Below are positions 34,958 to 58,993 of a DNA stretch of 59,362 nt, piece after piece. Under the pieces are notes generated by a model. That model was not told the origin of the DNA and ran no database searches. It worked only from the letters and a program-made list of their open reading frames with translations. The stretch is from a virus (Duplodnaviria; Caudoviricetes). Both the position numbers and the translations under genes were made by a program. The stretch is from positions 1 to 59,362 of IMG/VR virus record IMGVR_UViG_3300018481_000024; one strand, written 5' to 3'. How positions within the stretch are numbered: position 1 is the first letter of the stretch; every line of letters begins with the position of its first letter.

Positions 34958-35209
34958 GTGGACCTCCAGACGTTCGCCCTCGGCCTCGGCACGGTTCTAA
35001 CTGGGGCTGGTGGGGTGACGCTGGCGGTTCATGAATTTCGCAAGCGTGACAGGCGGGCGTTGAACGACGAAGCTGGAGCTATGTCGGACGACCTGACACG
35101 GGTCCGCCACGATCTGGTGGTGTGCCGCCGCTACTCCTTCGACCTCGCCGAGCGGTTGGCCGACCATGGACTTGAGGTGCCCGATCCTCCTGAGACGAAG
35201 CTGCCATGA
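34958..35209 (+). CDS. Membrane protein with coiled coil (lysis accessory)
   Basis: AAGGAG RBS and GTG start; N-terminal TM followed by an amphipathic helix. Confidence 0.6.
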
Positions 35210-35865
35210 AGCGGAGCAGCGTATGGGCGCTGGTCGGGGTGATGCTGTTCATGACGGCGGTGCTGTTCTCGGCGACGGTCACCTCGGCGATCCCCGAGCC
35301 GATCGCTGGGGTGTCAGGACCAGCGGGACCGCCCGGACCAGCGGGACCGCCGGGTGAACGCGGTGAGAATGGCGTCACCGTCATGGGACCACCGGGTGTG
35401 CAGGGCGAACCCGGTAGGGCAGGTGCTGCTGGTGCGACCGGCAGAGCCGGTGACTCGATCATCGGTCCGCCGGGTGAGTCGATCATCGGACTGCCCGGTG
35501 CCAATGGCTCCGACGGTGCGGCTGGTGCCAACGGCGCTGACAGCACGGTGCCCGGACCGGCTGGCTCACCGGGAGCTACAGGTGCTCCGGGTTCGACAGG
35601 AGCGCCGGGACCACAGGGCGCTGACTCCACGGTGCCGGGACCGCAAGGCGAGCCGGGAGCGACAGGAGCGCCGGGTCCCCAAGGTGCCACGGGTGAGCCG
35701 GGTCCCCGAGGATTGCCCGGACCTCAGGGCGTACAGGGGCCGAAGGGTGATCCGGGTGAACCCGCTCCCCTCATCGAGTGCCCGCCGGGGTACTCCAATC
35801 AGGAGGTCACGGTCGATGTGAAGGGACGTGGGGAGGTCACGATCTATGGATGCATCAAAAACTAG
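35206..35865 (+). CDS. Membrane-anchored/secreted collagen-like protein with C-terminal Cys pair
   Basis: Signal/TM segment, Gly-X-Y run, ECPPGY...IYGC. Confidence 0.75.
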
Positions 35866-39855: not shown

Positions 39856-39914
39856 CCTGTCTCCGGTCTGGTTTCCATAAGCGGCCGAGCGCCAGCGAGG
39901 TCGCCCTCTTCAAG

Positions 39915-39967
39915 AGGTGTTTTTATTTATCTCTGTTTTCTTCTCTGTTCCCTCTCTGGTGCTGTCT
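39915..39967. other. Strand-asymmetric AT-rich tract with three CAGAGA units (candidate replication origin)
   Basis: Minus strand reads ACCAGAGAGGGAACAGAGAAGAAAACAGAGATAAATAAAAAC, between the wHTH gene and the DnaC/DnaB operon. Confidence 0.4.
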
Positions 39968-39989
39968 GTTGGCGTACATTGAACGGCGT

Positions 39990-40712
39990 TCACATTTCGA
40001 ACCAGAGGCCGTCAATCGGCAGTCCCCAAGCGGGATCTGGCCTCCAGACCGGTGGCTCAGGCGAAGTGAGGAATGTGTAGGTTTCCACATTCCTATTGTG
40101 TAGATCTACACAATCCTCACCGTCAGAATCGACCCCTTCGTATAGCAGTGAGGATTTGACGGAGCCGTCGTAGAGGAAGTCCTCCAGCGTCAGTGAGGGG
40201 ACGTTCGGGCAGGGCCGACCCTTCACCTTGGACACCTTGAGGTGACCGGTCAGGGTGATGTCCTGCACCGTGAACTCGTAGCGTTCACCCCGGCAGAACC
40301 TGATGAGGTCAGGCGCTGCTTCCAGCACGGGATACCGGACCGGGATGCCGTGCCACTGACCACCGCGACCCTCCTGTTCCACCTTCCCGGCGTTGACGAA
40401 GCCCTTCCGCCTCAGGCCGCTGATGGCCCGCCGGAGTTCAGACTCGTTGGCGACGAGGAACCTGTTGCCGGTGAAGTGGCTCGCCCCCATGAGGACGTAC
40501 TTCCACGGCCACGTCGGTGTGGTCGAGGCGATCAGCTTCACCAGCACCGCCGCCTCGTTCTTGAGCAGCCCCATGGACTGCCAGTGGTCGGTGATGAAGG
40601 CGGCGACGTTGTCCCGGTCCCGGTAGTAGCTGCGCCTCCGGTCCGGCCAGAACGTGTTCAGCACACGGCGGTGGACAACCCAGTCAGTTGCGCTACGGTG
40701 CGAGTTGGTCAA
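39990..40712 (-). CDS. Winged-HTH protein, candidate replication initiator
   Basis: GGGAG RBS before TTG 40712; L..NEAAVL..L ... ESELRRAISGLRRKGFV wHTH pattern; heads the replication operon. Confidence 0.55.
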   Translation of the reverse strand: MTNSHRSATDWVVHRRVLNTFWPDRRRSYYRDRDNVAAFITDHWQSMGLLKNEAAVLVKLIASTTPTWPWKYVLMGASHFTGNRFLVANESELRRAISGLRRKGFVNAGKVEQEGRGGQWHGIPVRYPVLEAAPDLIRFCRGERYEFTVQDITLTGHLKVSKVKGRPCPNVPSLTLEDFLYDGSVKSSLLYEGVDSDGEDCVDLHNRNVETYTFLTSPEPPVWRPDPAWGLPIDGLWFEM

Positions 40713-40868
40713 CAACCTTCTCCCTTCGAACAGGTGAGGGTCGACCGTAACAGGACCGTCGCTTCGTGCGGCGGTCCTGTTGCGTTGTGGGGCTGCTTTT
40801 TTCCTGAGTCCCTGAAGTCTCAGGTTTCCAATGGTGTATCTGTCACAAGATGGTATATAGTCTTGTAC

Positions 40869-41993
40869 ATGGAGCCGACAGCGAAGAACGTACCGAAGAT
40901 CAGGACCCATCTCCTGAGGAAGCTGACGCTGGCCCAGCGCAACTGGAGCCAGTTCCCCGTCACTCGTTTCGAGAACTACACCCCCAAGGCCCGCGTTGAG
41001 GTCATGCAGAACGAGATCGACGGCCTCACCGATGCCACCAACCTCTGGGTGTCACCGGAGTGGGTCGCCCACCTCGACACCATCGCCGCTCAGGTCTTCG
41101 AAGCCGACGCCGACATCGTGTTGGAGGAGATCGGCCTGTTCGCCGACAGCGGGTTCGTGGTGTTCCCCGATCCGATCTACATCCCGGCGGTCGACAGCAA
41201 GGCCGAGTTCCCGGTCAGCGCCATGATGTGGACGATTGACGAGGTCCAGTCCCAGCACGGCCTCCGCCGTGCCATGACCACCACCTCCTACATCTGGCGG
41301 GAGCACTACGCCCTCAGCGGCGAGATCGGGCTGCGGGTGGTGAGTCCCGAGAACAAGGAGGGGGAGCCGTACCTCATCACCGCACCCGGCGACACGCTGC
41401 TGACGAGGGACAACCTCCACCTCAACCGCCTGACCGACGAGGAGCAGGCGGTCATCAACGAGCGGGGCATCAACGATGTCGAGGTCCAGAAGGTGTGGGA
41501 CTCCGTCCTCGACAGGGCGTTCGGCGACGAGCAGTGGATGGGGATCGGGCGCAACGACTGGTTCTTCGACACCGCCGCCGACGACATGGGCGAGTCCATG
41601 ACCATCGTCCACGCCGAGTACCCCGAGTTGGCGGCACGCCACATCGCCATCGACCGCACCCTGTTCTGGACCCTCAACAAGCTGCTGACCGCCGAGCGCC
41701 ACACCGAGCGTCAGGTCCGCCAGCCCTCCACCAACAAGTCGAAGAAGCGGCGGAAGGCCACCGTCGGCAACGACGAGGTCCACATCATCCACCTCCGTAA
41801 GAACGCCCCGACCAAGCCGACCCTCAACCCCGGCAGCGGGCGCAAGCTCACCCACGAGTCCGAGACGCAGGGCCACTGGAAGATGCAGCCCTACGGACCG
41901 GGCCGGTCCCTCCGCAAGCGGATCTGGGTCGGCAAGTTCAAGCGGGGAGTGGGCCTCCCCCCGAAGGAACAGGTCTACTCACTCGACCGATAG
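40869..41993 (+). CDS. Hypothetical early protein with GHW..QPYGP...RK.IW C-terminal motif
   Basis: ATG 40869 lies 7 nt after TATAGT; basic C-terminal motif common in phage proteins; the ORF-track upstream extension is an antisense shadow. Confidence 0.75.
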   Translation: MEPTAKNVPKIRTHLLRKLTLAQRNWSQFPVTRFENYTPKARVEVMQNEIDGLTDATNLWVSPEWVAHLDTIAAQVFEADADIVLEEIGLFADSGFVVFPDPIYIPAVDSKAEFPVSAMMWTIDEVQSQHGLRRAMTTTSYIWREHYALSGEIGLRVVSPENKEGEPYLITAPGDTLLTRDNLHLNRLTDEEQAVINERGINDVEVQKVWDSVLDRAFGDEQWMGIGRNDWFFDTAADDMGESMTIVHAEYPELAARHIAIDRTLFWTLNKLLTAERHTERQVRQPSTNKSKKRRKATVGNDEVHIIHLRKNAPTKPTLNPGSGRKLTHESETQGHWKMQPYGPGRSLRKRIWVGKFKRGVGLPPKEQVYSLDR

Positions 41994-42018
41994 TCCATCA
42001 CCAACAAGGAGCAGTGCC

Positions 42019-42279
42019 ATGAGCCAGATGACAGTGGAGAAGATGAAGCAGCAGTTCGCCGATCCCGACGATTTCGAGAACGACCCCATGATCGCCTTGG
42101 TGGCGATGAAGGATCTCTCGGGCGTGACCGGCGGAATGATGTTCGGCGCAGCCGAGAAGCATGTGCGGGACAAGTACGACGGCAAGACCGAGATCCTCGG
42201 TTCCTGCCTGTCGGGGGAGCGCGATCGTGGACGCCCCGTGATCGCCGTCGCCCACCGGCCCCACGGAGAGGAGGCGTAA
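42019..42279 (+). CDS. Hypothetical protein
   Basis: AAGGAG RBS; phage-like codon usage. Confidence 0.65.
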   Translation: MSQMTVEKMKQQFADPDDFENDPMIALVAMKDLSGVTGGMMFGAAEKHVRDKYDGKTEILGSCLSGERDRGRPVIAVAHRPHGEEA

Positions 42280-42325
42280 ATACCTGAGGGACCCGGAATC
42301 TCAGGAATATCCCTGCTGGGGATCT

Positions 42326-42354
42326 TTGCGACTGACAACCGGATGGGTTACCGT
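42326..42354 (+). promoter_or_regulatory. Sigma70/HrdB-type promoter
   Basis: TTGCGA-17 nt-TACCGT. Confidence 0.55.
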
Positions 42355-42376
42355 TCGATGACAGGACAAAGTCAAG

Positions 42377-42406
42377 AAGCCCGCCGAGCGCGAACTCGGC
42401 GGGCTT
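42377..42406. terminator. 12-bp hairpin terminator/attenuator
   Basis: AAGCCCGCCGAG-CGCGAA-CTCGGCGGGCTT followed by TCCC. Confidence 0.7.
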
Positions 42407-42434
42407 TCCCATATCCCCGACAGGAGCGTTACCA

Positions 42435-42863
42435 ATGACCCGTCGAGTCAGACATCTTCTACTACTGACCCTTGCGTGCGCCAGTGTCCTTCTGGCCTCC
42501 GCCTGTACGGAGGAACAGAAGTCGCTGTGGCTGAGCCTGCCGCACGACCAGCAGGTGGCGGTGGCGAACTACATCAACCAGCAGAGCAGCGGCGACTGCT
42601 TCTCAGCCCTCGGTCACTTCTCCGGTGACCACGGCAAGGCCCGTCAGGTCATCATGCGCGAGTCGGGTAACAACCCGAGCGCCGCCAATCCGGGTTCATC
42701 GGCCCGAGGGTGCTTCCAGACGATGATGTCGATCCACGGCCCGAAGTACTACCAAGTGGGCTGCACGCCGAACGACTGGGACAACGCCGTGTGCAACACC
42801 AAGGTGGCCGACATTTTGTACCGATCATCGGGTTGGTCCCCGTGGGCAGCCAGCGGCGGTTGA
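42435..42863 (+). CDS. Secreted/lipoprotein lytic transglycosylase (SLT, Rpf-like size)
   Basis: AGGAG RBS; signal peptide ending LLASA-C; VIMRESG.NP.A.N..SSARGCFQ..N...A..LY...GWSPW. Confidence 0.85.
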   Translation: MTRRVRHLLLLTLACASVLLASACTEEQKSLWLSLPHDQQVAVANYINQQSSGDCFSALGHFSGDHGKARQVIMRESGNNPSAANPGSSARGCFQTMMSIHGPKYYQVGCTPNDWDNAVCNTKVADILYRSSGWSPWAASGG

Positions 42864-42878
42864 TAGCCTGAGAGGTTC

Positions 42879-43277
42879 ATGGATGAGGCGGACAGCACAT
42901 CGCTTCCCACCTTGAGTGGGGCTGTTCGTATCATTCAGGTGTCCGAGGGTGAGCCGGGTCCCGCCCCCCGCTCCCCTCGGACGCCTTTCTCGGAGATGCC
43001 GTTGAAGGTCGCCATCGGCGACTTCCTCCGCACCGCCGTCGTCGGTCGGTACCCGGTGTCCGCCGACGAGGAGTGGACGCTGATCCGCCTGACCCAGCAG
43101 CAGATACACCATGTCGCTGACTCCTACGACCGGCTGCTCGCGGAGAAGGACGCCTTCCAGCGGAAGTCGGAGAAGGTGACCGAAGTCCTCACCCTCCTCC
43201 GTCGGTCGAACACCCGGAAGAACCGGGAGTGGAACGATGCGATTGACACCGTGGCGAAATCACTGGATGAAATCTGA
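42879..43277 (+). CDS. Hypothetical protein
   Basis: GAGG RBS; coiled-coil C-terminus. Confidence 0.5.
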   Translation: MDEADSTSLPTLSGAVRIIQVSEGEPGPAPRSPRTPFSEMPLKVAIGDFLRTAVVGRYPVSADEEWTLIRLTQQQIHHVADSYDRLLAEKDAFQRKSEKVTEVLTLLRRSNTRKNREWNDAIDTVAKSLDEI

Positions 43278-43304
43278 CGGCTCAGGACACTCAGGATCGC
43301 CGCT

Positions 43305-43332
43305 TTGACCTCCTGATCACCTGTTGTATGGT
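43305..43332 (+). promoter_or_regulatory. Sigma70-type promoter for the candidate ncRNA
   Basis: TTGACC-16 nt-TATGGT. Confidence 0.55.
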
Positions 43333-43337
43333 GATTA

Positions 43338-43493
43338 CAGGCGAAGGGTGTGGTAGCCCCTCGTCGCTGCGCTCCGGCCCAACCGGTTGCAGTTTCTCCT
43401 TGGAGGAGTTGAGCCAGCCCCTACGGGGAACCGGCTCCTTCTAGGTAGATGGGAACGACGGCCTGCCCTTCGGGGCGGGCCGTCGTTGTGTTT
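43338..43493 (+). ncRNA. Candidate structured small RNA of about 155 nt
   Basis: Intergenic; four consecutive stem-loops plus a 15-bp cUUCGg terminator stem (43454-43487) followed by GTGTTT. Confidence 0.6.
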
Positions 43494-43546
43494 ACCGACA
43501 CATTGTGTTCTTCCTTTGTACCGGCGGGTACATATACTGCTAACCA

Positions 43547-43759
43547 ATGGCAGCACTGGAGGCAGCAATGGTCACGGCGGAGTGGCTAGGCGGTCCGCTC
43601 GACGGCATGGAGATGACGGTCGTAGGCGACACCGTTCGGTACCCCATCCAGATCGATACTGATGAACTCGGCACCAAGTGGGTCGAGGTCATCGTCGTCC
43701 CCGTCGAGCAGAGGGCCGACGGGAAGTTCGTCCTGCGCTGGCCGCAACTGACTAGTTGA
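43547..43759 (+). CDS. Small hypothetical protein
   Basis: GGPLDG motif; TATACT 8 nt before the ATG. Confidence 0.6.
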   Translation: MAALEAAMVTAEWLGGPLDGMEMTVVGDTVRYPIQIDTDELGTKWVEVIVVPVEQRADGKFVLRWPQLTS

Positions 43760-44022
43760 TGGCGTACGTCCTGCTGGGCTTCGCGGTGTTCGCCGTGATG
43801 ACCTACGGCATCGAAGCACTGGACGACCACACAGGATTCGAACTGCCCAGATGGGTTTATGTTCTGATCCGTTGGATTCTCGGGATGAGTCTGGCTATAA
43901 TCTGGGGCGGCTGGAGTAATTGGTACTTCGGCCCCGCAGTGGTCGGCGTTTCACGGATCACACTCAAACTGGACACCTATCTCACGGTGCTGATCGAATC
44001 CATTTCTCGCCAGCGCCGGTAA
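43759..44022 (+). CDS. Small membrane protein
   Basis: TGATG coupling; two or three hydrophobic segments. Confidence 0.6.
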   Translation: MAYVLLGFAVFAVMTYGIEALDDHTGFELPRWVYVLIRWILGMSLAIIWGGWSNWYFGPAVVGVSRITLKLDTYLTVLIESISRQRR

Positions 44023-44043: not shown

Positions 44044-45174
44044 ATGGACATGACACCACGGCCCTACGAGTTCATCATCGTCAGCGACGGTGACCCAGAC
44101 CACCTTCCACCGAAGGTCTTTGCCGAGGCACTCGCCGAGTTCGCGGAGATCACCAAGGGAGCCACCCTCATCGATGATGACGGCAACTCCGTCCCGACGA
44201 TGGACGTGAGCTTCCTCCCCTTCGCCACCGACGTTCTCCCCAAGCGGATCCTGACCGACATCGCTGCCATCTGCGGCAACGACCACGTCAGGGCGTACTC
44301 GTACTCCTACGGGGACACGCTGCCGTCGAAGGATGTGCGGGCCACCATGCCGCACCAGTTCGAATGGCCGGACGAGTACGGCGATGACATCGAAGTGGAT
44401 GGCCGGGAACAGGTCATCCTTCTGGCGGCTGGACATGACCTCGACCACGAAGCGCGCACCTTCATCGAGGAGGCGCTACAGCGGGGCCATCAGATCCTTG
44501 TCATCGATGAGGGTCTGTGGCAGTTGGACGCCATCACAGAACTGGAGCAACCCATGTCCGAGATCGACACCATGCAGGCGGAACTCGACGCCCTGACCGC
44601 CAGCGAGGAGGCGACACCCGAACCTTCGAAGGTCAGGACGAAGGTGAAGACGCCTCAGCCGGTGCCCGACAACGTGGCCGTCACCATCCCCTCGGTCGTG
44701 CAGAGCATCGATGAGGTCGACCCGGTCGATCCCAACTTCGGTGTCACCGCCGAGGACGACGCACCGATGGTGCCCGAGCAGATCCCGGTCACCCCCGCTG
44801 GTGAGCACGACGGCCAGCAGGGCGAGCACACCGGCCCGCCGCTCAACCCCGAGTGGGAAGCCATGGGTCGGAACGAACTGCGCGACCTCGTCAAGGAGAA
44901 GGGGCTGCACCCCACCGACTTCCGGTCGAAGCAGAGCCTGCTGGACTGTCTCTACGGACGGCCCGCCACGGTGAAGCCCCAGCGGCGCAGTCCCCTCAAG
45001 AAGAAGCAGGACGAGGTCGAGGCCATGACGGCCATGGACGCCGAGATCCCCGCCATCATCAAGGCGCTCAAGGGCGTGCTGGAAGAGCAGCAGGGCACGC
45101 TCGACAACCAGCAGGTGGTGCTGGCGAAGCTGGAAGCCCTGCTCACCATCGGTGAACGAGTGGGTGAATCCTGA
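44044..45174 (+). CDS. Hypothetical protein with C-terminal HeH/Rho-N-like nucleic-acid-binding module and coiled coil
   Basis: GGAG RBS; WEAMGRNELRDLVKEKGL.....SKQSLLDCL. Confidence 0.6.
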   Translation: MDMTPRPYEFIIVSDGDPDHLPPKVFAEALAEFAEITKGATLIDDDGNSVPTMDVSFLPFATDVLPKRILTDIAAICGNDHVRAYSYSYGDTLPSKDVRATMPHQFEWPDEYGDDIEVDGREQVILLAAGHDLDHEARTFIEEALQRGHQILVIDEGLWQLDAITELEQPMSEIDTMQAELDALTASEEATPEPSKVRTKVKTPQPVPDNVAVTIPSVVQSIDEVDPVDPNFGVTAEDDAPMVPEQIPVTPAGEHDGQQGEHTGPPLNPEWEAMGRNELRDLVKEKGLHPTDFRSKQSLLDCLYGRPATVKPQRRSPLKKKQDEVEAMTAMDAEIPAIIKALKGVLEEQQGTLDNQQVVLAKLEALLTIGERVGES

Positions 45175-45198
45175 CGGTTCTCCATACTCAGGATCTAT

Positions 45199-45232
45199 GT
45201 AGGAGGGACCGGAGCAATCCGGTCCCTTCTGC
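45199..45232 (+). terminator. Hairpin terminator with GCAA loop
   Basis: GTAGGAGGGACCGGA-GCAA-TCCGGTCCCTTCTGC. Confidence 0.7.
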
Positions 45233-45264
45233 GTTGGAGATCCAACTGTGTAGTCTAGGGAGCC

Positions 45265-46824
45265 ATGCCTGAACTTCGCTCCTACCAGCTTGAGGCCGCG
45301 GGGCTTGCCCAGCAGCGGGGCAGCCTCCTCCTCGGACTCATCATGGGCAGCGGCAAGAGTGCCGTCGCCATCGAAGCGGTGAAGCGCCGACGTGCCCGCC
45401 GGAAGACCACCCGAGGGTCGATCGTCTGTCCGGTCAGCCTCAAGTACCAGTGGGCCGAGGAGATCAAGAAGTGGGATCCCGGTGCCTCCATCGTCGTGGT
45501 GGACGGCACCAAGGGACAGCGCACGGCCCAGTATCAGATCGAAGCCGACTACACGATCCTCGGGTACTCCAACATCCAGCACGACTGGGACGAGGTGCGG
45601 AAGTACCTCCCGACCGACTTCATGATTCTGGATGAGTGCAGCGCCATCAAGGGCTTGAAGACCCAGCGGTCGAAGCGTCTCAAGGCCATGGCCTCCAAGG
45701 TCAGCCTCCGCATGGCGCTGACCGGCACGCCCACCGAGAACCGGCCCGAGGAACTGTTCTCCATCATGGAGTGGGTGGACCCCACCGTGTTCGGGGACTT
45801 CCGCAAGTTCGACCGGGTGTTCATCGTGCGGGACAACTGGGGCAAGCCCGTTCGGTACCACAACCTGAACCGGCTCCATGAGCTACTCGGCGACGCCATG
45901 TACAGGAAGTCCCGAAAGGATTTGGAGGAGTTCCTGCCCGAGCGGGTGTTCACCCAGATCCCGCTCCACTACCCCTACCCCAAGACTCAGGCGATCATCG
46001 AGTACGTCGCCCACGACATCATCCGGGTGATGGACCAGCACGCCGAGCAGCCCGGTGGTCAGTTCGACATCTCCGAGCACTACGGGATGTCCACGAAGGA
46101 CGACAAGGGCAACCGGCTCAAGGGTGAGGTGATGCGTCGGGTCAACGCCATGCGCCTCCTGCTGGATCACCCCGACCTCCTCGCGTGGTCCGCCGACAAC
46201 TACGAGGACGAATCCACCAACGACGGGTCGGAGTACTGCTACAGCCTCCTGACCAACCCGGCCCTGTCCGAACCGGAGCCGAACTCGGCGAAGCTCGACC
46301 TGTTGCTGGAGCACCTGACCGAGGTCTTCGACGGTGACCCCGATGCCAAGGTGGTTGTGTTCGCATCGTTCAAGCCGATGGTCCGCATCATCGGGGCAGC
46401 GCTCAAGGCCCGAGGGTGGGGCTTCGTCTCCATGACCGGAGACACCGCAGCGGCCACCCGGCAGAAGAGGATCGTCGCCTTCAACAAGTCCTCCAAGGTC
46501 AGGGTGTTCCTCTCCACCGACGCTGGTGCCTACGGCGTGAACCTCGACAGCGGCACCCACCTCATCAACTACGACTTCCCGTGGTCGGCGGGTGTGTTCG
46601 CCCAGCGCCGTGCCCGGATCGACCGGACCTCCACAGCTCACCGCACCATATTCGTGAGCGATCTGTTCCATCAGGATTCAGTAGAGGCTTACCAACTCCT
46701 GATGCTGGAGCACAAGCAGGACGTGGCCGATGCGTGGATCGATGACGGTGAGGTGGAGACGCTCAACGTCGATCTGGATAATCTCAGGAAATATCTGGAG
46801 AAGGCGTATCTAGGGATTGCGTAG
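45265..46824 (+). CDS. SNF2-family (SF2) helicase
   Basis: LRSYQ; MGSGKS; ILDECS; LTGTP.EN...EL; STDAG..GVNL; QR.ARIDR. Confidence 0.93.
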   Translation: MPELRSYQLEAAGLAQQRGSLLLGLIMGSGKSAVAIEAVKRRRARRKTTRGSIVCPVSLKYQWAEEIKKWDPGASIVVVDGTKGQRTAQYQIEADYTILGYSNIQHDWDEVRKYLPTDFMILDECSAIKGLKTQRSKRLKAMASKVSLRMALTGTPTENRPEELFSIMEWVDPTVFGDFRKFDRVFIVRDNWGKPVRYHNLNRLHELLGDAMYRKSRKDLEEFLPERVFTQIPLHYPYPKTQAIIEYVAHDIIRVMDQHAEQPGGQFDISEHYGMSTKDDKGNRLKGEVMRRVNAMRLLLDHPDLLAWSADNYEDESTNDGSEYCYSLLTNPALSEPEPNSAKLDLLLEHLTEVFDGDPDAKVVVFASFKPMVRIIGAALKARGWGFVSMTGDTAAATRQKRIVAFNKSSKVRVFLSTDAGAYGVNLDSGTHLINYDFPWSAGVFAQRRARIDRTSTAHRTIFVSDLFHQDSVEAYQLLMLEHKQDVADAWIDDGEVETLNVDLDNLRKYLEKAYLGIA

Positions 46825-46845
46825 CTGATACCAAACGTGTACTCT
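46817..46845 (+). promoter_or_regulatory. Sigma70-type promoter
   Basis: TTGCGT-17 nt-TACTCT. Confidence 0.6.
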
Positions 46846-46887
46846 TTGGAGGCAACCCATCTACCGAACCTCAAGGAGCACACCGAA

Positions 46888-47292
46888 ATGAACGAGCACT
46901 CCGGCTACGGCCAGCCCACAGGAACCGGGACGATCCCGATGAACGGCCCGTCCTACGGGCACTACGACCAGCCCTCCAACTGCAACCGTGGCTACGACTA
47001 CGACCGGGACGACTGGAACCTCAGCCCGTGGAACAGCACCTCGGCGAAGAACTTCGGCGCTGCCTACAGCGATGACCCCCGCATCCGCCACGCTGGCGTG
47101 GGCGGCGGCAACCTCAGCGGTGGCACCTACTACTCCGACGGCACCTACTACGGCAGTCAGGGTGGCGGCGGACAGGTCATCAACCTCGGTGAGGTCATCG
47201 TCGGCCTCGTCGTCATCATCGGCCTCCTCGCAGCCTTCGGACTCTTCGTGGTCCGTGGGATCCTGCGTGCCATGAACGGAGTCCGGCGATGA
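46888..47292 (+). CDS. Gly/Tyr-rich protein with C-terminal TM helix
   Basis: AAGGAG RBS before ATG 46888; hydrophobic C-terminal segment. Confidence 0.65.
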   Translation: MNEHSGYGQPTGTGTIPMNGPSYGHYDQPSNCNRGYDYDRDDWNLSPWNSTSAKNFGAAYSDDPRIRHAGVGGGNLSGGTYYSDGTYYGSQGGGGQVINLGEVIVGLVVIIGLLAAFGLFVVRGILRAMNGVRR

Positions 47293-47429
47293 GCGCCCCG
47301 ATGGGCGGTGATGGCCGTGGCTATCACACCGACCCCGACAACCCCTACTGGATGACGAAGCTCACCCCACAGTTCGTCATCCAGCTCGTCCTGCTACCCG
47401 TCTTCGTCAACCTCTGGAGTCAGTCATGA
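47289..47429 (+). CDS. 46-aa membrane peptide (not in the ORF track)
   Basis: MSAPMGGDGRGYHTDPDNPYWMTKLTPQFVIQLVLLPVFVNLWSQS; ATGA overlaps at both ends. Confidence 0.55.
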   Translation: MSAPMGGDGRGYHTDPDNPYWMTKLTPQFVIQLVLLPVFVNLWSQS

Positions 47430-48049
47430 GCGTCACCCGTACCCCCGTCAATCCCGAACCCACCTTCGATCCCACCGACCCCGACTCGTTCCCCGAGACG
47501 GTCTTCTACCGGGATCTGGAGCACCACCTCAAGGCCCGTGCTCTCTACGAGGCGGCGAAGGATGCCGCCGACCGGTACAAGGACCGGACCAAGGCCAACG
47601 TCGAGGCCATCGGCGACAAGGACAACACCGGCAGCTACGTCGTCTCGTTCGAAGAGAGCGACGAGGGCTATCTGACGGTCGCTGGCGAACAGGTCAAGTT
47701 CGTCAAGTCGGAGAAGTACAAGAAGTCCAAGGGCGGCATCAACCCCGAGAAGGCGAAGGAACTCCTGTCGGAGTCGCAGTGGGAGCAGTCCACGACCCAC
47801 GTCATCAGCATCGAGGTTCCCGGCCACGCCCCGGTCAAGGAGATCGTCGCCGCCGTGAAGGAGACGTTGAAGGACGCCGACATCACCGATGGCTTCGTCA
47901 TCGACCCGAACCTCGTCATCGATGAGGACAAGGTCACCAACCTGAACTACTTCGACGGCCCGGATCAGATCACCGACAAGCTGTTGAAGGAGATCACCGA
48001 CGACGACGAGTACGCCACCCGGCTGATCGTCAACAAGAAGAAGAAGTGA
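47426..48049 (+). CDS. Hypothetical protein (coiled coil plus beta hairpins; Gam/Gp157-like possible)
   Basis: GGAG RBS; strong phage codon bias; basic C-terminus. Confidence 0.6.
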   Translation: MSVTRTPVNPEPTFDPTDPDSFPETVFYRDLEHHLKARALYEAAKDAADRYKDRTKANVEAIGDKDNTGSYVVSFEESDEGYLTVAGEQVKFVKSEKYKKSKGGINPEKAKELLSESQWEQSTTHVISIEVPGHAPVKEIVAAVKETLKDADITDGFVIDPNLVIDEDKVTNLNYFDGPDQITDKLLKEITDDDEYATRLIVNKKKK

Positions 48050-48528
48050 TGCCCGACCCGGTCGAGGATCTGTTCGGTGACTTGATGGATAACCCTGAGT
48101 CTGGAGAGGCTCAGGATTATCCCGGTCGTCGGAAGCCTGCGAACCGGCCCGACAAGAAGACGGCCACCGATACTGTCACACCCCCTTGGGATGATCGTCC
48201 CCTACACCTTGTCCACAAGGGTCAGGTGAGGGAGTGGTTCACGATCAGGCACCTCGCGAAGGCGCTGGGTCGCAAGGAGGTCACCATTCGTTCATGGGAG
48301 AAAAAGGGCAGGATGCCACAGACCCCGTTCCGAACCGCACCACCGAGGGGTTCCAACCTCGCGCAGGCGGCGGGGCGGCGGCTGTGGACCCGTGAGCAGA
48401 TCGAAGGCATCGTCCAGATCGCCGAAGAAGAGAAAGTCATCGTTGACATGAAGCAGTCACCGCCAACGGATCGGTTCGCCATCCGGGTGGCTCGGTTGTT
48501 CGCAGAGATCAAGGCCAAGGAGGTCTGA
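48046..48528 (+). CDS. MerR-like HTH DNA-binding protein
   Basis: FTIRHLAKALGRKEVTIRSWEKKG.MP..PFR....RRLWTREQI. Confidence 0.8.
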   Translation: MMPDPVEDLFGDLMDNPESGEAQDYPGRRKPANRPDKKTATDTVTPPWDDRPLHLVHKGQVREWFTIRHLAKALGRKEVTIRSWEKKGRMPQTPFRTAPPRGSNLAQAAGRRLWTREQIEGIVQIAEEEKVIVDMKQSPPTDRFAIRVARLFAEIKAKEV

Positions 48529-48531
48529 CCA

Positions 48532-49428
48532 GTGGTACGCAGAGCAGTGATTCCAGACGAGGATGAGTTCATCCCCGAGGACGACGACGAGGGCACGCCC
48601 GCAGAGGCTGCCGACGGCGGTGAGGACTACGAGGGTGAGCCGGAACCGGCACCCCGTCGTCAGCGACAGCGTGTCGCCGACGACGCCGAAGACCTCGACC
48701 CGCCCGCCACGAAGACGAGGCGTGCCCGTGTCACCGATGAGGACGGCGAGGAGGAGAAGCGTCTCCCCCGGAAGGCTGCGGCCTCGACCAACGGGACGAA
48801 GCGTCGGACCATCAAGCGTGGCTGGCAGGCCGGTCAGAAGACCATCGACAACAACCGTGGTCCGACCACCTACGCCAAGGCGTATCAGGACAACCCGACG
48901 ACTCAGGTTCTCAAGTTCCTTGAGGACGAGCCGTACGCCAGCTACGCCCGCCACTGGGTGGCTCGGGTCGACGCCGAGGGCAACAAGAAGAACCGCCCCT
49001 ACGTCTGCCTCGGCACCTTCGATGAGGCGTGCCCCCTCTGTGACGTGCTCGGTGACAAGCCGCAGTCGGTCAACTCGTTCAACATCGCGGTGCTGGACGA
49101 GGACGGCGAAGACGTGACCCACTACACATGGGATGTCGGTCCCCGGCTGTTCGACACGCTCAAGTCGTTCCGTGAGGACCCGAAGATCAAGACCCTCACC
49201 AAGGGCTTCTGGGGTTCCCGCCGGTCGGGCAAGGGCTTCCAGACCATGCACCACGTCACCCCCATCCGGTCCGCCGCCACCCTGCTGGAGGACTACGAGA
49301 TGGAGGCTCCTCCGACCTCGGTGTACGCCGAGATCGAACTGTACGAGGCCGACATCATCTCGGTCCCGACCTACGAGGAGTTGGAGGAGATCGCCGAGGA
49401 GTTGGCGAACTCCGACGATTACGAGTGA
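48532..49428 (+). CDS. Single-stranded DNA-binding protein (T4 gp32-like)
   Basis: KFLEDEPYASY.RHW..YVCL...CPLC..FNI..RSGKG..T.H; acidic termini; precedes the polymerase gene. Confidence 0.72.
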   Translation: MVRRAVIPDEDEFIPEDDDEGTPAEAADGGEDYEGEPEPAPRRQRQRVADDAEDLDPPATKTRRARVTDEDGEEEKRLPRKAAASTNGTKRRTIKRGWQAGQKTIDNNRGPTTYAKAYQDNPTTQVLKFLEDEPYASYARHWVARVDAEGNKKNRPYVCLGTFDEACPLCDVLGDKPQSVNSFNIAVLDEDGEDVTHYTWDVGPRLFDTLKSFREDPKIKTLTKGFWGSRRSGKGFQTMHHVTPIRSAATLLEDYEMEAPPTSVYAEIELYEADIISVPTYEELEEIAEELANSDDYE

Positions 49429-49429
49429 G

Positions 49430-51451
49430 GTGTATCTACACCCGCACCTGATGCGCTCAGAGGAGGCGCTGGACCCGATGGTCCAGCGCCTTCTTCGCGC
49501 TCCGTACGTCGTGCTCGACGTGGAAACCGACGGCCTCGACACCACCAACAACTCGGTGATCTGGGTCGGCCTCGCCGCTCCCGGCCAGCGCCACGTCATC
49601 CCGCTCGGTCACCCTCTCGGGTTCTGCACCGAGCCTGCCCACGTCATCGAGGAGGACGACCTCTCGACGGTGCGGCCCTTCAAGAACAACCCCACCCGGT
49701 TCACCAAGCCGAAGAAGAAGCGGGTGAAGATCCCGGCGAAGTTCTCCGAGCCGCCGGTAGATCAGTTGCGACCCGACATCGTGTTCGCCGCGTTGAAGCC
49801 CCTGCTGTTCGATCCCGAGCGGATCATCGTCGGCCACAACGTGAAGTTCGATCTCCTGTCGGTGGCGAAGTACTACGGCGGGCAGATCCCGACGGCCCAT
49901 CCCCACGACACGATGATCCTCGCCCACATCCTCAACGAGAATCAGGCTGCCTACGACCTCAAGACCCTGACCACCAACTGGCTGCTCGGTCCGAAGGCCA
50001 CGCCCGAGAGGAAGGCGGAGTTCTACCCGGCGCTCGCCAAGGGCGGGATCATGGACAAGCCCTTCGACGCCATCGCCGAGTACCTGTGCCGGGACATCAC
50101 CTACACGATGTGGTTGTACCGCCGGTACATGAAGCGGCTCACCCCGAAGTTCCGTGACGTGTTCGAACTGGAGTCGGACACCCAGCAGGTGATCATGGAG
50201 ATGGAGCAGGTGGGGGTCCGGGTGGACCTGAGTGTCATACGAAACCTGACTACCAAGGTGGCTCAGGAAAGAGACGCCCTGATCCAGTCCATCTACGACG
50301 AGGCCGGTCGGGAGTTCAACATCGCCAGCGTCCCCGAGAAGGTGGCGCTCCTGTTCGGCTCCAAGGACGAGGGCGGCATGGGACTGGAGCCGGTGAGCTT
50401 CACCAAGAAGAACCAGCCTCAGGTCAACAAGGCCGTGATGCAGGCGCTGGCCGACGACGGTGTCGACATCGCCGAGATGCTCATGGAGTACGGCGAGCTG
50501 GACAAGATCCTGAACTCGTTCCTCGTCCCGTACGAGGAGGAGTTCGTCAACCCCACCACCCACCGGGTCCACCCCTCCTTCTGGCAGCACCGGGCGAGAA
50601 CGGCACGGCTCACCTCGTCGGAGCCGAACATCCAGCAGATCCCGGTGCGGACCGAACTGGGCCGGATGTTCCGTCGGTCCTTCACCGCTCCACCCGGTGG
50701 CGTCCTCGTCACGGTCGACTACGACCAGATCGAACTGCGCTGCACCGCCCACCTCTCGCGGGACAAGGCGATGCGGACGATCTTCATCCTCGGCGAGGAC
50801 ATCCACGCCCGGTCAGCGGCCAACGCCTTCACCATCTCCATCGAGAAGGTCACGCCGGAGCAGCGTGCCAACGGGAAGACCTTCTCGTTCGCCGTGCTCT
50901 ACGGGGCGTCCCCGAAGAAGGTGGCGAAGACGATCGGTCGTCCGATCAAGACCACCGAGAAGTTGCTGGAGGAGTTCTACAAGGGCTTCCCGGCGCTGGA
51001 GAGGTGGAAGCGGGAGGTGCTGGCGTCAGCGGTCCGCAAGGGTGACCCCAACATCCGAGGGGCTGACCCCTACGTCGAGATCCCCCCGTATGGACGACGA
51101 CGCCGACTGCCCGATCTGTGGTCTGGGGACACCAGCGAGTTGTGGAGGGCACAACGACAGGCCGTCAACGCCGTCGTCCAAGGGTTCGCATCCTGCATCA
51201 TGAAAGAGGCGATGGTGTTGACGGCGGATGAACTCCGCCGATCGGGTCTGGCTGCCCGGATCGTCGTACAGGTCCACGACGAAGTGGTGGTCGAAGTGGA
51301 TAACGTGTGTGACGCTGAAGCGGTGCTGGCCCTCGTGGTGAAGTGCATGGAGTCGATCACCGATCAGCACGGGGATCCGATCCTCGGAGACGTGCCACTG
51401 ATTGCCAGCGGAGGCTTCGGGCCGACGTGGGTTGATGCGAAGGACCACTGA
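49430..51451 (+). CDS. polA: DNA polymerase family A with 3'-5' exonuclease
   Basis: ExoI DVETDG, ExoII GHNVKFD, ExoIII YLCRD; motif A DYDQIELR, motif B R..GKTFSFAVLYG, motif C VHDE; start set at GTG 49430. Confidence 0.95.
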   Translation: MYLHPHLMRSEEALDPMVQRLLRAPYVVLDVETDGLDTTNNSVIWVGLAAPGQRHVIPLGHPLGFCTEPAHVIEEDDLSTVRPFKNNPTRFTKPKKKRVKIPAKFSEPPVDQLRPDIVFAALKPLLFDPERIIVGHNVKFDLLSVAKYYGGQIPTAHPHDTMILAHILNENQAAYDLKTLTTNWLLGPKATPERKAEFYPALAKGGIMDKPFDAIAEYLCRDITYTMWLYRRYMKRLTPKFRDVFELESDTQQVIMEMEQVGVRVDLSVIRNLTTKVAQERDALIQSIYDEAGREFNIASVPEKVALLFGSKDEGGMGLEPVSFTKKNQPQVNKAVMQALADDGVDIAEMLMEYGELDKILNSFLVPYEEEFVNPTTHRVHPSFWQHRARTARLTSSEPNIQQIPVRTELGRMFRRSFTAPPGGVLVTVDYDQIELRCTAHLSRDKAMRTIFILGEDIHARSAANAFTISIEKVTPEQRANGKTFSFAVLYGASPKKVAKTIGRPIKTTEKLLEEFYKGFPALERWKREVLASAVRKGDPNIRGADPYVEIPPYGRRRRLPDLWSGDTSELWRAQRQAVNAVVQGFASCIMKEAMVLTADELRRSGLAARIVVQVHDEVVVEVDNVCDAEAVLALVVKCMESITDQHGDPILGDVPLIASGGFGPTWVDAKDH

Positions 51452-51841
51452 ATGGATACGGACAAGGGCTGGTGGGCTAAGAAGCTAGGGGGTGGCTCAC
51501 CAGATGCTCATGTAGAGCAGCCGCAGCAACATCCACAGCAGTATCCACAGCAATATCCCCAACAGCAGATTCCACAGAACGGCTCGCAGCCTCAAGGCCA
51601 GATCCCTCCTTCCCAGATTCAGGTTACGCCCGAGAATCTTTTCGAGGCGATGAACCACTGGCAGGGAGGTGAGGCGTCCCGTACGGAACGGTACGGATGC
51701 CCCCGGTGCGGCGGGAACCACTACTACTCCCGGTCGCAAGGAACATCGAGAGGGCCAGCGCCCGCTCCGATGTGCTTCGACTGCGGGTTCAATGGCATGT
51801 TCGATCAGGGGGATCCGACTGTGTGGGGAACGACTGTCTGA
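51452..51841 (+). CDS. Gln/Pro-rich protein with C-terminal zinc ribbon
   Basis: WWAKKLG; QQ(H/Y)P tandem repeats; CPRCGG..CFDCG. Confidence 0.7.
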   Translation: MDTDKGWWAKKLGGGSPDAHVEQPQQHPQQYPQQYPQQQIPQNGSQPQGQIPPSQIQVTPENLFEAMNHWQGGEASRTERYGCPRCGGNHYYSRSQGTSRGPAPAPMCFDCGFNGMFDQGDPTVWGTTV

Positions 51842-51860
51842 CGTTCTCTACGGAGTGAAC

Positions 51861-52112
51861 ATGAAATCCGATCCCTACATGTTTCTGATCGACCTGTTGT
51901 CGAAGATGTACAACCCATTGGTTATAGAGGTATACGAAGATCGGATCAGACAGGCCGCTCTTTTCCTGAATGACCAGTGGGACTCAGATATCTGGTTGGT
52001 CTTCGACCGGGACTTCCACTGGAAGTTCGGTCGCCCGAACGTCGCCGACTTCACCCACGGCCCCAACGTCGTGATCAAGGTGCAGCACTACATATCGGAG
52101 TATCTAGATTGA
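51861..52112 (+). CDS. Hypothetical protein (AT-richer insertion)
   Basis: GGAG RBS before ATG 51861; TTGA overlap with the recA start. Confidence 0.5.
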   Translation: MKSDPYMFLIDLLSKMYNPLVIEVYEDRIRQAALFLNDQWDSDIWLVFDRDFHWKFGRPNVADFTHGPNVVIKVQHYISEYLD

Positions 52113-53128: not shown

Positions 53129-53142
53129 TACACTGGTGACTC

Positions 53143-53484
53143 ATGCTGGATGAAATACCTGAAGGTCATCTCATCGGGAAGAGCATCTCCTCCTCGACCT
53201 ACAAGAACCTCGGGTGCCGCTGTGAAGGATGCCGCATCGAGGCCAAGTTGTACCAGCGGAAGATGAGGAAGCGGGGCGGGAGGATCAAGGCCCACGACAA
53301 GGCCCAGTCCGTCGCTACCTATCGGGCTGGTCAGTGGGTCCGAGAAGAGTTCCCTCGCGTGTGGTCACGCATCTACAAGGAGGCGCTGGCCGAGGCGCTG
53401 ATCTCCCACGACTTCACCCCGAAGGAGCAGAGTGTCACACCCTCAGAAGAGACTGTCGGACAAGCAGGAGCAGCGAACGGCTGA
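53143..53484 (+). CDS. Small Zn-binding protein
   Basis: STY.N.GCRCEGCR..A..YQR actinophage motif. Confidence 0.6.
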   Translation: MLDEIPEGHLIGKSISSSTYKNLGCRCEGCRIEAKLYQRKMRKRGGRIKAHDKAQSVATYRAGQWVREEFPRVWSRIYKEALAEALISHDFTPKEQSVTPSEETVGQAGAANG

Positions 53485-58398: not shown

Positions 58399-58408
58399 GG
58401 AGCAACTG

Positions 58409-58981: not shown

Positions 58982-58993
58982 CCGGAGGTCAAC

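What the first reader, a model, noticed from the sequence alone, without database searches (positions are those of the whole stretch)
43338..43493. Self-contained multi-hairpin small RNA with possible kissing loops
Seen: a promoter (TTGACC..TATGGT) preceded by the palindromic site, then P1 GGCGAAGGG-TGTGGTAG-CCCCTCGTC, P2 CTGC..CCGG-CCCAA-CCGG..GCAG, P3 CTCC-TTGGA-GGAG, P4 GAGCC..CCCC-TAC-GGGG..GGCTC, and a 15-bp UUCG terminator. There is no credible ORF. Loop complementarities exist: P1 GUAG with P4 CUAC, and P2 CCAA with P3 UUGG. I cannot assign it to tRNA, tmRNA or a known riboswitch. Inference: a phage-encoded structured ncRNA such as a protein sponge, anti-defence RNA or ribozyme.
Basis: partly seen in the sequence, partly recalled or inferred. 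Interest (0 to 1): 0.75.

Follow-up and report, generated by a model that had tools for sequence, protein, structure and literature searches.

The report
Promoter-to-terminator non-coding phage leader RNA
A roughly 150-base non-coding stretch in an uncultivated soil phage has a good bacterial-type promoter, three or four hairpins and a strong terminator; it is most likely a short leader RNA gating the genes behind it, but no relative could be compared, so its fold and role are unproven.

Summary
The stretch lies in a 290-nt non-coding gap (43278-43567) of a 59-kb, 62% GC IMG/VR myovirus fragment. It sits between two + strand ORFan genes, upstream of a replication gene block.

Confirmed:
- The only intergenic TTGACN-N16-18-TANNNT promoter match in the window, wrapped in inverted repeats.
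- Hairpins P1 and P2.
- A 15-bp UUCG terminator hairpin that is better on the + strand.
- No coding signal.

Not confirmed:
- P3 and the outer stem of P4. A long helix replaces them (pair probability 0.90-0.96 against 0-0.04).
- The kissing loops.
- Structure beyond chance. Without the terminator, z is only -2.1.

No Rfam, tRNA or tmRNA match was found, and no homologue. I searched 50,697 phage records, IMG/VR, JGI metagenomes, GTDB genomes, 86 related loci and 10 whole related records. Covariation therefore could not be tested. One soil run holds a ~94% relative with two 1-nt insertions in P1.

Best reading (0.45): a promoter-proximal terminated leader, like lambda 6S or StxS, that gates the downstream operon. 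Rivals are a stand-alone sRNA, a put-like element, or incidental hairpins. Interest is modest.

The parts
42879..43277 (+). Upstream gene, 132 aa, ORFan. Its TGA stop lies inside the palindromic motif.
   Evidence: GC1/2/3 of 0.63/0.45/0.81. No PHROG or Pfam hit. No relative in phages, IMG/VR or JGI metagenomes. The Atlas gives no informative neighbour.
43273..43295 (.). Palindromic site TCTGA-N13-TCAGG, a 1-mismatch copy of the window-wide motif CCTGA-N13-TCAGG. It contains the direct repeat CTCAGGA-CA-CTCAGGA.
43291..43316 (.). Inverted repeat TCAGGA-N14-TCCTGA bracketing the -35 hexamer. Candidate operator.
   Evidence: Read from the sequence. 43291 is listed among TCAGG-N16-CCTGA exact pairs.
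43305..43332 (+). Sigma-70/SigA-type promoter TTGACC-16 nt-TATGGT. Predicted start near 43338-43341.
   Evidence: It is the only intergenic TTGACN-N16-18-TANNNT in the window.
43316..43335 (.). Inverted repeat ATCACC-N8-GGTGAT overlapping the -10 hexamer. Candidate operator.
   Evidence: Read from the sequence. It pairs as a hairpin in the fold of the whole gap.
43340..43365 (+). P1 hairpin, starting about 2 nt from the predicted 5' end (-12.2 kcal/mol).
   Evidence: A ~94% relative in soil run X5 has single G insertions after 43342 and 43345.
43366..43393 (+). P2 hairpin abutting P1, with loop CCCAA (-13.2 kcal/mol).
43395..43449 (+). It buries the Shine-Dalgarno-like GGAGGAG against CUCCUUC. 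The apical CCCC-UAC-GGGG is kept.
   Evidence: pair probabilities 0.90-0.96.
43454..43493 (+). Intrinsic-terminator-like hairpin: 15 bp, UUCG loop, one U.G pair, and an interrupted U tail (UU)GUGUUU.
   Evidence: Not listed by the consensus terminator scan.
43494..43567 (+). Spacer to the next gene: two small hairpins, a possible -10 TATACT at 43533-43538, and RBS GGAGG at 43558-43562.
   Evidence: The promoter scan lists no promoter here.
43568..43759 (+). First downstream gene, 63 aa from the ATG at 43568 (the ORF list starts it at 43547). It is followed by 43756-44022, 44044-45174, the SNF2 helicase at 45265-46824, DNA polymerase and a UvsX-like recombinase.

Best explanation
This is a promoter-proximal terminated leader. 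A host-type (SigA/sigma-70-like) promoter at 43305-43332 is wrapped in inverted repeats that look like operators. It starts transcription near 43339. The first ~150 nt fold into a 5'-terminal hairpin (P1), a second hairpin (P2) and a long irregular hairpin, then reach a strong but U-poor intrinsic terminator at 43454-43493.

Most transcripts would stop there and give a ~150-nt RNA. Those that read through, by leak or with a phage factor, would carry the structured leader into the co-directional gene block that starts at 43568 (small ORFans, SNF2 helicase, DNA polymerase, recombinase).

The unit would therefore work as a transcriptional gate, like lambda PR'-6S RNA-tR' or the Stx-phage StxS unit. 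The short RNA would be its by-product, and might or might not have a job of its own.

Shown: the sequence elements, their strand, and the non-coding nature of the stretch. Inferred: the transcription start, termination, read-through and the gating role.
For: Promoter:
- Found by the scan.
- TTGACN-N16-18-TANNNT occurs 2 times in 59,362 bp on both strands. Only this copy is intergenic.
- No comparable + strand intergenic match in 45,000-59,362.

Terminator: 15 bp with a UUCG loop, -33.0 kcal/mol on + against -27.5 on -, followed by a U-rich tail.

Non-coding:
- Frame plot and GC2 values, and no Pfam hit for 0 of 4 ORFs.
- The ~94% relative in run X5 carries two 1-nt insertions after 43342 and 43345. 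They would shift the 38-codon ORF. The same contig shows only substitutions in the upstream gene.

Context:
- All flanking genes are on the + strand with short gaps, and the downstream genes are replication genes.
- In related record L009, the homologues of the downstream genes 43756-44022 (40% identity) and 44044-45174 (24%) lie behind a TTGACA-17 nt-TAGGTT promoter and a WhiB gene. So a promoter in front of this module is conserved.
- Structured leaders behind such promoters recur in the helicase-related phages. 7 of 16 promoter-like sites in L009-L051 have z <= -3 for the first 100 nt, against 5% of 60 random segments.
- L028 and L040 share a leader with a 5' hairpin (2 compensatory pairs), a UUCG terminator-like hairpin about 65 nt from the start, then ~170 conserved nt before the gene.

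Precedent (passages read):
- PMC7547250: lambda 6S RNA and StxS are short RNAs made because a constantly active late promoter is terminated immediately downstream.
- PMC5712189: the early promoter Pleft of L5, D29 and StarStuff gives an abundant non-coding RNA.
Against: - No expression data of any kind.
- No homologue that can be aligned, so no covariation and no test of conservation.
- The hairpins without the terminator are only weakly better than shuffles: z -2.13, with 7 of 200 shuffles as good. In the 100-nt measure used for the relatives, the window's leader scores only -1.48.
- The terminator fails the tool's U-tail rule.
- No convincing antiterminator alternative. With the 3' arm blocked, the 5' arm pairs with the P1 5' arm for only -57.5 against -53.7 kcal/mol.
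- No antiterminator protein was recognised among the neighbours. The 132-aa upstream protein has no family.
- A TATACT at 43533-43538 could be a separate promoter for the downstream genes. That would make the RNA a free-standing unit.
- The leaders in the relatives are not homologous to this one.
Confidence: 0.45

Rival explanations
1. A free-standing, trans-acting small RNA gene. The ~150-nt RNA from the promoter to the terminator is the functional product. It would base-pair with host or phage mRNAs or bind a protein. The downstream genes would have their own promoter.
For: - Complete promoter plus terminator on one strand.
- A possible -10 TATACT at 43533-43538 behind the terminator.
- Phage short RNAs of this layout can act in trans: StxS (PMC7547250, passages read) and the ncRNAs of cluster A mycobacteriophages (PMC5712189, passages read).
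- CU-rich stretches (CUCCUU, CUCCUUC) could pair with Shine-Dalgarno sequences.
Against: - No complementarity to the rest of the window beyond chance. The best is 12 nt exact or 15 of 16, E 0.4.
- The CU-rich stretches are buried in a helix with probability 0.90-0.96.
- No conservation outside a ~94% relative, and no second promoter found by the scan.
- Host targets could not be searched because the host is unknown.
Confidence: 0.22
2. A cis-acting RNA that modifies RNA polymerase, like put of HK022. P1 and P2 are two abutting stem-loops with internal loops at the very 5' end of the transcript. They would bind the elongating polymerase and let it pass the terminator at 43454 and the later hairpins (for example 45206-45227).
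For: - Two adjacent bulged stem-loops (54 nt) start about 2 nt from the predicted start, just behind an early-type promoter and ahead of terminator-like hairpins in a long operon.
- put RNAs are ~70 nt, made of two stem-loops, just downstream of PL, and need no protein (PMC9378689, passages read).
Against: - No second copy in the window or in 10 related records. HK022 has putL and putR.
- No Rfam hit, and no conservation to test.
- Two hairpins in 62% GC RNA are near chance (z -2.13).
- put is known from lambdoid coliphages acting on E. coli polymerase, and nothing links it to this lineage.
Confidence: 0.06
3. No dedicated RNA. The hairpin at 43454-43493 is simply the terminator of the upstream operon (40242-43277). 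The promoter match is weak or cryptic, or just sits early. The hairpins between them are what 62% GC sequence gives by chance.
For: - P1-P4 have z of only -2.13, and the minus strand folds nearly as well (-1.52).
- Other gaps in this region also carry a palindromic motif followed by a strong hairpin: 42280-42434 (z -5.3) and 45175-45264 (z -6.9).
- The region is absent from all related phages.
Against: - A terminator for the upstream operon would be expected before, not 120 nt after, the only consensus promoter in the window.
- The gap is 135-200 nt longer than the two neighbouring gaps with the same motif-plus-hairpin layout.
- The promoter is wrapped in two inverted repeats, as regulated promoters are.
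Confidence: 0.2
4. A DNA-level element (replication origin or a cluster of protein-binding sites) or a small protein-coding gene, rather than an RNA.
For: - Several inverted and direct repeats lie among replication genes.
- A 38-codon ORF at 43328-43444 sits in the frame with the highest GC3 (0.74).
Against: - No AT-rich stretch or iterons here. The 386-nt divergent gap 39856-40241 is the more origin-like one.
- The ORF has GC2 of 0.64 and no ribosome-binding site. Its ATG lies inside the -10 hexamer. The two 1-nt insertions in the X5 relative fall within it.
- No Pfam hit.
Confidence: 0.04

Closest known systems
Lambda PR'-6S RNA-tR' unit and its Stx-phage form StxS (PMC7547250, passages read)
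   Same: A host-type promoter is followed within 150-260 nt by a strong terminator, ahead of a long co-directional gene block. The result is a short, structured, non-coding by-product RNA that also forms the 5' end of the read-through transcript.
   Different: - No Q-like antiterminator gene was recognised upstream. The 132-aa neighbour has no family.
- No qut or pause element was tested.
- The genes behind are replication genes, not late genes.
- The host is probably an actinobacterium, not E. coli.
- No sequence likeness.
HK022 put RNA (PMC9378689, passages read)
   Same: Two adjacent stem-loops with bulges at the 5' end of an early transcript, upstream of terminators.
   Different: - P1+P2 is 54 nt, not ~70.
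- No second copy.
- No sequence or Rfam match.
- No evidence of polymerase binding.
Abundant non-coding RNA downstream of the early lytic promoter Pleft in cluster A mycobacteriophages L5, D29 and StarStuff, and their 63-64 intergenic RNA (PMC5712189, passages read)
   Same: An actinophage early-type promoter followed directly by a stretch without a credible ORF. The function of those RNAs is also unknown.
   Different: - Those regions are ~500 bp and are shown to be expressed. Here the unit is 150 nt with no expression data.
- No DNA similarity to any of 50,697 phage records.
Leaders of related IMG/VR phages found here (L028:1193-1500 and L040:1276-1560; L010, L015, L016, L022)
   Same: A consensus TTGACN-N16-18-TANNNT promoter is followed by strongly folding RNA before the first gene of the block that leads to the SNF2 helicase. 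L028 and L040 even have a UUCG terminator-like hairpin inside the leader.
   Different: - Not homologous in sequence or by covariance model.
- In L010, L015 and L022 the hairpin runs straight into the ribosome-binding site with no terminator and spacer.
- The downstream genes differ.

Membership tests
Any Rfam 15 family (riboswitches, ribozymes, CRISPR repeats, tmRNA, 6S, known phage RNAs) | Score at or above the family's gathering threshold | tested here: not met
   0 of 4227 families over the whole window. At E <= 10 on 43200-43650 there are 4 weak hits. The best is 21.4 bits against 55 (rnk leader), aligned on the terminator hairpin.
tRNA / tmRNA | Cloverleaf or tmRNA architecture found by ARAGORN | tested here: not met
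   0 genes in the window.
Lambda 6S / StxS-type antitermination-regulated short RNA | Host-type promoter followed closely by an intrinsic terminator, ahead of a long co-directional operon | tested here: met
   Promoter 43305-43332, terminator hairpin 43454-43493, + strand gene block from 43568.
Lambda 6S / StxS-type antitermination-regulated short RNA | Q-family antiterminator gene directly upstream of the promoter | tested here: not met
   The upstream 132-aa and 142-aa proteins have no Pfam hit. PHROGs gives none for the first and only weak transglycosylase hits for the second. The Atlas gives no informative neighbour.
Lambda 6S / StxS-type antitermination-regulated short RNA | The short RNA is made, and read-through is switched on by a factor | not testable with these tools
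   No RNA run holds the stretch.
HK022 put RNA | About 70 nt, two stem-loops with bulges, close behind an early promoter | tested here: inconclusive
   P1+P2 are two abutting bulged hairpins of 54 nt, starting about 2 nt from the predicted start. Hairpins of this kind are near chance here (z -2.13).
HK022 put RNA | Two similar copies in the genome (putL, putR) and sequence likeness among put RNAs | tested here: not met
   The covariance model finds only itself in the window (141.7 bits, next best 17.9) and nothing in 10 related records. The window is only ~61% of a genome. put sequences themselves were not on hand.
HK022 put RNA | Binds the RNA polymerase beta' zinc-binding domain and suppresses termination | not testable with these tools
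   Needs in vitro transcription.
Conserved structured ncRNA (general criterion) | Homologues with compensatory base changes | not testable with these tools
   No homologue could be fetched. The only relative (~94%, run X5) is seen as a difference list that stops at 43411.
Trans-acting antisense sRNA | Extended complementarity to a target mRNA | tested here: inconclusive
   Nothing above chance within the window (best E 0.4). Host targets could not be searched because the host is unknown.

The most novel reading that the evidence does not exclude
P1-P2 at the 5' end of the transcript is a protein-independent, polymerase-modifying antiterminator RNA (put-like), in a lineage of probable actinobacterial myoviruses where no such element is known. 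Alternatively, the terminated 150-nt RNA has gained a trans role, such as a decoy against a host defence or a regulator of host mRNAs, as StxS did.
Probability: 0.08. Interest if true: 0.7.

Novelty: new member of a known kind. Interest (0 to 1): 0.3.

Why it matters
If the gate reading is right, this is the control point for the replication module of an uncultivated, probably actinobacterial, myovirus. It would also be another case of a phage promoter-proximal terminator producing a short RNA, which is raw material for new regulatory RNAs as argued for StxS and lambda 6S (PMC7547250).

Related phages also place strongly folding leaders behind their consensus promoters. That hints at a shared regulatory habit in this poorly known group. 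As it stands, the finding is a plausible but unverified single-sequence prediction. Its main practical value is as a small, well-delimited template for an in vitro transcription test.

Tried and rejected
Searches that found no homologue:
- blastn of 43200-43620 against 50,697 phage records: no match.
- tblastn of the two neighbouring proteins against the same records: no match.
- The search for related loci with the 132-aa, 376-aa and helicase proteins in IMG/VR: none.
- The 132-aa protein in JGI metagenomes: none.
- The 376-aa protein in the 5.8-billion protein set: only itself.
- Exact 19-mer and 20-mer of P2 and of P3/P4 in IMG/VR: none.
- An 18-base P2 pattern in GTDB genomes: 92 stretches from unrelated taxa. 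80 came back as loci, and none scored with the model (best 20.1 bits, E 0.19).
- The contig of the 79%-identical helicase P0003 was not retrieved by the metagenome scan.

Related phages:
- 80 IMG/VR loci were fetched by a helicase alignment, with 36-51% identity.
- No blastn or nhmmer similarity to the gap.
- The upstream genes are not conserved there.
- The single-sequence covariance model R1 was built from the same stretch given twice. It finds only itself among the window and 86 loci, 956,939 bases.
- 0 of 10 whole related records match.

Sequencing runs:
- No RNA holder is listed.
- Of the 15 runs listed (12 holders), 4 were laid. X1 and X2 hold short exact pieces.
- X5 holds a ~94% relative whose contig ends at 43411. 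12 of its differences were not shown, so conservation of the RNA against the gene could not be compared.

Rejected readings:
- Riboswitch or attenuator with a real antiterminator.
- An antisense target inside the phage.
- A small protein.
- A CRISPR-repeat mimic, retron or ribozyme (no Rfam hit).
- A replication origin (no AT-rich run or iterons).
- The window-wide palindrome is not shared by the relatives: 2 N13 copies in 840 kb, which is background.

Other:
- The search of earlier findings and 'relatives' for a virus record were not available.
- Supplementary files of the papers were not seen. The put alignment and the StxS conservation tables there might have allowed a direct comparison.

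Full report
WHERE IT LIES

The window is a single IMG/VR virus record of 59,362 bp, about 62% GC, estimated 61% complete. PHROG and Pfam hits show a myovirus: tail sheath, baseplate wedge, tail fibres. They also show a replication module:
- primase and DnaB on the minus strand at 36.1-38.8 kb;
- on the + strand, an SNF2 helicase at 45265-46824, DNA polymerase at 49133-51451, a UvsX-like recombinase and a Cas4-like exonuclease.

The finding sits in a 290-nt gap (43278-43567). The gene before it is 42879-43277 (132 aa). The gene after it most plausibly starts at the ATG at 43568, behind GGAGG. A codon-position GC plot shows strong third-position bias in both neighbours and none in the gap.

THE OBSERVATION

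Promoter. The scan reports TTGACC-16 nt-TATGGT at 43305-43332. A stricter pattern, TTGACN-N16-18-TANNNT, occurs only twice in the whole window on both strands. This is the only intergenic copy.

The promoter is embedded in symmetry:
- a 1-mismatch copy of a palindrome, TCTGA-N13-TCAGG, at 43273-43295;
- TCAGGA-N14-TCCTGA around the -35 hexamer;
- ATCACC-N8-GGTGAT over the -10 hexamer.

Terminator. It is a 15-bp stem with a UUCG loop and one U.G pair. It folds at -33.0 kcal/mol on the + strand against -27.5 on the minus strand. The tail is (UU)GUGUUU, so the tool's U-tail rule does not list it.

THE FOLD

RNAfold puts P1 (43340-43365) and P2 (43366-43393) in the MFE and centroid structures.
- P3 pairs have probability 0.0 and the P4 outer stem 0.04.
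- A helix GGAGGAGUUG:CGGCUCCUUC has 0.90-0.96. It gives one long irregular hairpin at 43395-43449 that keeps the apical CCCC-UAC-GGGG.

The z-score is -4.89 with the terminator. For P1-P4 alone it is only -2.13, with 7 of 200 shuffles as good. The minus strand is not far behind at -1.52. Other gaps with a terminator-like hairpin score as well or better: 42280-42434 at -5.3 and 45175-45264 at -6.9, in a cruder mononucleotide shuffle.

Kissing loops. In the MFE structure only GUAG/CUAC remains. It needs both closing pairs to open, and one partner is a 3-nt loop. 137 of 1000 shuffles have at least one such match. The two-pair pattern is rare (1 of 1000) only if the unsupported four-hairpin drawing is accepted, and the shuffles average 2.6 hairpins rather than four.

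NOT CODING, NOT A KNOWN RNA

- The four ORFs that overlap the stretch have GC2 of 0.60-0.65, against 0.39-0.45 in real neighbours. None has a Pfam hit.
- ARAGORN finds nothing.
- Rfam finds nothing at gathering thresholds in the whole window.
- At E <= 10 there are four weak hits on or next to the terminator hairpin. The best is 21.4 bits against a threshold of 55.

HOMOLOGUES

None could be obtained.
- DNA and protein searches of cultured-phage records, IMG/VR and JGI metagenomes with the gap and its neighbours gave nothing.
- The 376-aa downstream protein is alone in a 5.8-billion protein set.
- The SNF2 helicase does have relatives. One is 79% identical, on a contig I could not retrieve. 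Many are 45-52% identical on ~100-kb contigs.
- I fetched 80 IMG/VR loci around them. The genes upstream of the helicase are not shared. There is no sequence similarity to the gap.
- A single-sequence covariance model of P1-P4 finds only itself: 141.7 bits, next best 17.9 bits at E 0.79, in 956,939 bases.
- The whole records of the ten nearest relatives are also blank.
- An 18-base P2 pattern hits 92 unrelated places in GTDB genomes. None of the 80 returned loci scores with the model.

THE ONE NEAR RELATIVE

12 metagenome runs hold small parts of a 2-kb stretch around the finding, and none is an RNA run. I laid four of them.
- Two hold short exact pieces of this phage.
- Soil run X5 holds a ~94% relative. 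One contig covers 42878-43411 and ends there.
- In the upstream gene that contig differs only by substitutions (19 listed).
- In the 5' arm of P1 it has two single-G insertions, after 43342 and 43345. These would shift the 38-codon ORF, which supports a non-coding reading.
- By inspection they turn the A.C mismatch of P1 into a small bulge and lengthen GGG/CCC, so P1 could survive. I did not fold the variant, because 12 of its differences were not shown.

CONTEXT THAT BEARS ON FUNCTION

(a) Three successive gaps begin with the motif CCTGA-N13-TCAGG and then carry a GC-rich hairpin: 42280-42434, 43278-43567 and 45175-45264. Only the middle one has the consensus promoter and the extra ~115 nt of hairpins.

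(b) In L009, the only relative that keeps homologues of 43756-44022 and 44044-45174, that module lies behind a TTGACA-17 nt-TAGGTT promoter. The promoter runs straight into a WhiB gene (Pfam 1.1e-16). So a promoter ahead of this module is conserved, and the lineage probably infects actinobacteria. That WhiB is restricted to actinobacteria and their phages is from general knowledge.

(c) In the relatives, consensus promoters are often followed by strongly folding RNA.
- 7 of 16 sites in L009-L051 have z <= -3 over the first 100 nt, against 5% of 60 random segments. L015 and L016 are near-duplicates. The window's own value in this measure is only -1.48.
- L028 and L040 share a leader with a 5' hairpin that keeps pairing through two double changes. 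It also has a UUCG terminator-like hairpin about 65 nt from the start, then ~170 conserved nt before the first gene.
- These leaders are analogous to the window's, not homologous.

MECHANISM

I commit to a promoter-proximal terminated leader (0.45). The promoter is probably controlled through the inverted repeats and the upstream palindrome. It starts transcription near 43339. P1 forms at the very 5' end. It is established knowledge that a 5'-terminal hairpin protects RNA from 5'-end-dependent decay. P2 and the long hairpin follow. Most polymerases stop at the U-poor terminator, and the rest carry the leader into the replication genes.

This is the logic of lambda PR'-6S RNA-tR' and of StxS. 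There a constantly active promoter is terminated immediately downstream, and the by-product RNA may acquire its own role (PMC7547250, passages read). It also recalls the abundant non-coding RNA behind Pleft in cluster A mycobacteriophages (PMC5712189, passages read).

Only the sequence elements, their strand and the lack of coding are shown. The start, the stop, the read-through and the regulation are inferred.

Against this reading:
- no antiterminator structure of weight;
- no recognisable antiterminator protein;
- no expression data;
- a possible separate -10 at 43533-43538.

RIVALS

- A free-standing trans-acting sRNA (0.22). No target was found inside the phage.
- A put-like polymerase-modifying RNA (0.06). 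The architecture is reminiscent of put (PMC9378689, passages read), but there is no second copy and no conservation.
- Incidental hairpins plus the upstream operon's terminator (0.20).
- A DNA element or small gene (0.04).

NOVELTY AND SCORE

The layout is a known kind. The sequence belongs to no known family and has no retrievable relatives. Interest is 0.3. It would rise if in vitro transcription showed factor-independent antitermination, or if new relatives showed covariation.

Noticed in passing
window 1350, 4471, 37820, 42283, 45170, 50245 (N13); 25773, 40803, 48094, 55191 (N12); 43273 (1 mismatch): A palindromic motif CCTGA-N12/13-TCAGG with A/T-rich flanks (about WWWCCTGA...TCAGGAWW) is enriched. 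There are 16 matches at <=1 mismatch against 3.4 expected (0 of 100 shuffles). There are 6 exact at N13 and 4 at N12, against 0-2 at other spacings. Copies lie both in genes and at the start of three successive gaps. It is not enriched in 840 kb of related loci. It could be the site of a phage-specific DNA-binding protein.
   Followed up: partly
window 42280-42434 and 45175-45264: Both gaps start with the palindrome at or just after the upstream stop codon and carry a GC-rich hairpin (42377-42406 and 45206-45227) 28-37 nt before the next RBS. The U tails are weak, so downstream genes must be read through these hairpins. Gap 42280-42434 may hold a weak TTGCGA-17 nt-TACCGT promoter (my reading, not listed by the scan).
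   Followed up: partly
L028:1193-1500 and L040:1276-1560: Two related phage contigs share a conserved ~300-nt leader. It has a consensus promoter and a 5' hairpin with two compensatory pair changes. A UUCG terminator-like hairpin sits about 65 nt from the start, followed by a conserved 170 nt before a GTG gene of ~300 aa with a weak HTH hit. This is a candidate structured leader family of its own. Only these 2 of the 86 loci searched hold it.
   Followed up: partly
L010:2477-2620, L015/L016:2704-2830, L022:598-730: Consensus promoters are followed by 75-100-nt very stable hairpins (z -2.8 to -4.2) that run directly into the RBS of ~185-aa genes. L038:1837 has a similar layout, but its first 100 nt score only z -1.15.
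   Followed up: partly
L009:854-1260 (minus strand): A WhiB-family gene (Pfam 1.1e-16) starts 7 nt after a TTGACA-17 nt-TAGGTT promoter, so it is probably leaderless. It is followed by homologues of window genes 43756-44022 and 44044-45174, in inverted orientation relative to the helicase.
   Followed up: partly
window 4240-8514, 35206-35865, 55798-58398: Repeat families with a 9-nt-multiple period, rich in GGN codons, are shared among three large + strand genes. They look like collagen-like Gly-X-Y tracts of tail-fibre proteins.
   Followed up: no
window 39856-40241: A 386-nt gap between the minus-strand replication genes and the + strand genes. It has a T-rich run (39920-39960) and an inverted repeat around 40080-40115. 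It is a better origin or divergent-promoter candidate than the finding.
   Followed up: no
window 42878 and 44120-44283 (run X5 contigs): The ~94% relative diverges completely upstream of 42878 and replaces 162 nt at 44120-44283 with 165 other letters. This suggests mosaic exchange at gene boundaries.
   Followed up: no
window 39990-40910 (-) and 40242-41993 (+): Two long ORFs on opposite strands overlap by ~670 nt, and both have coding-like GC3. Only the + one has a PHROG hit. The true gene starts here are unclear.
   Followed up: no
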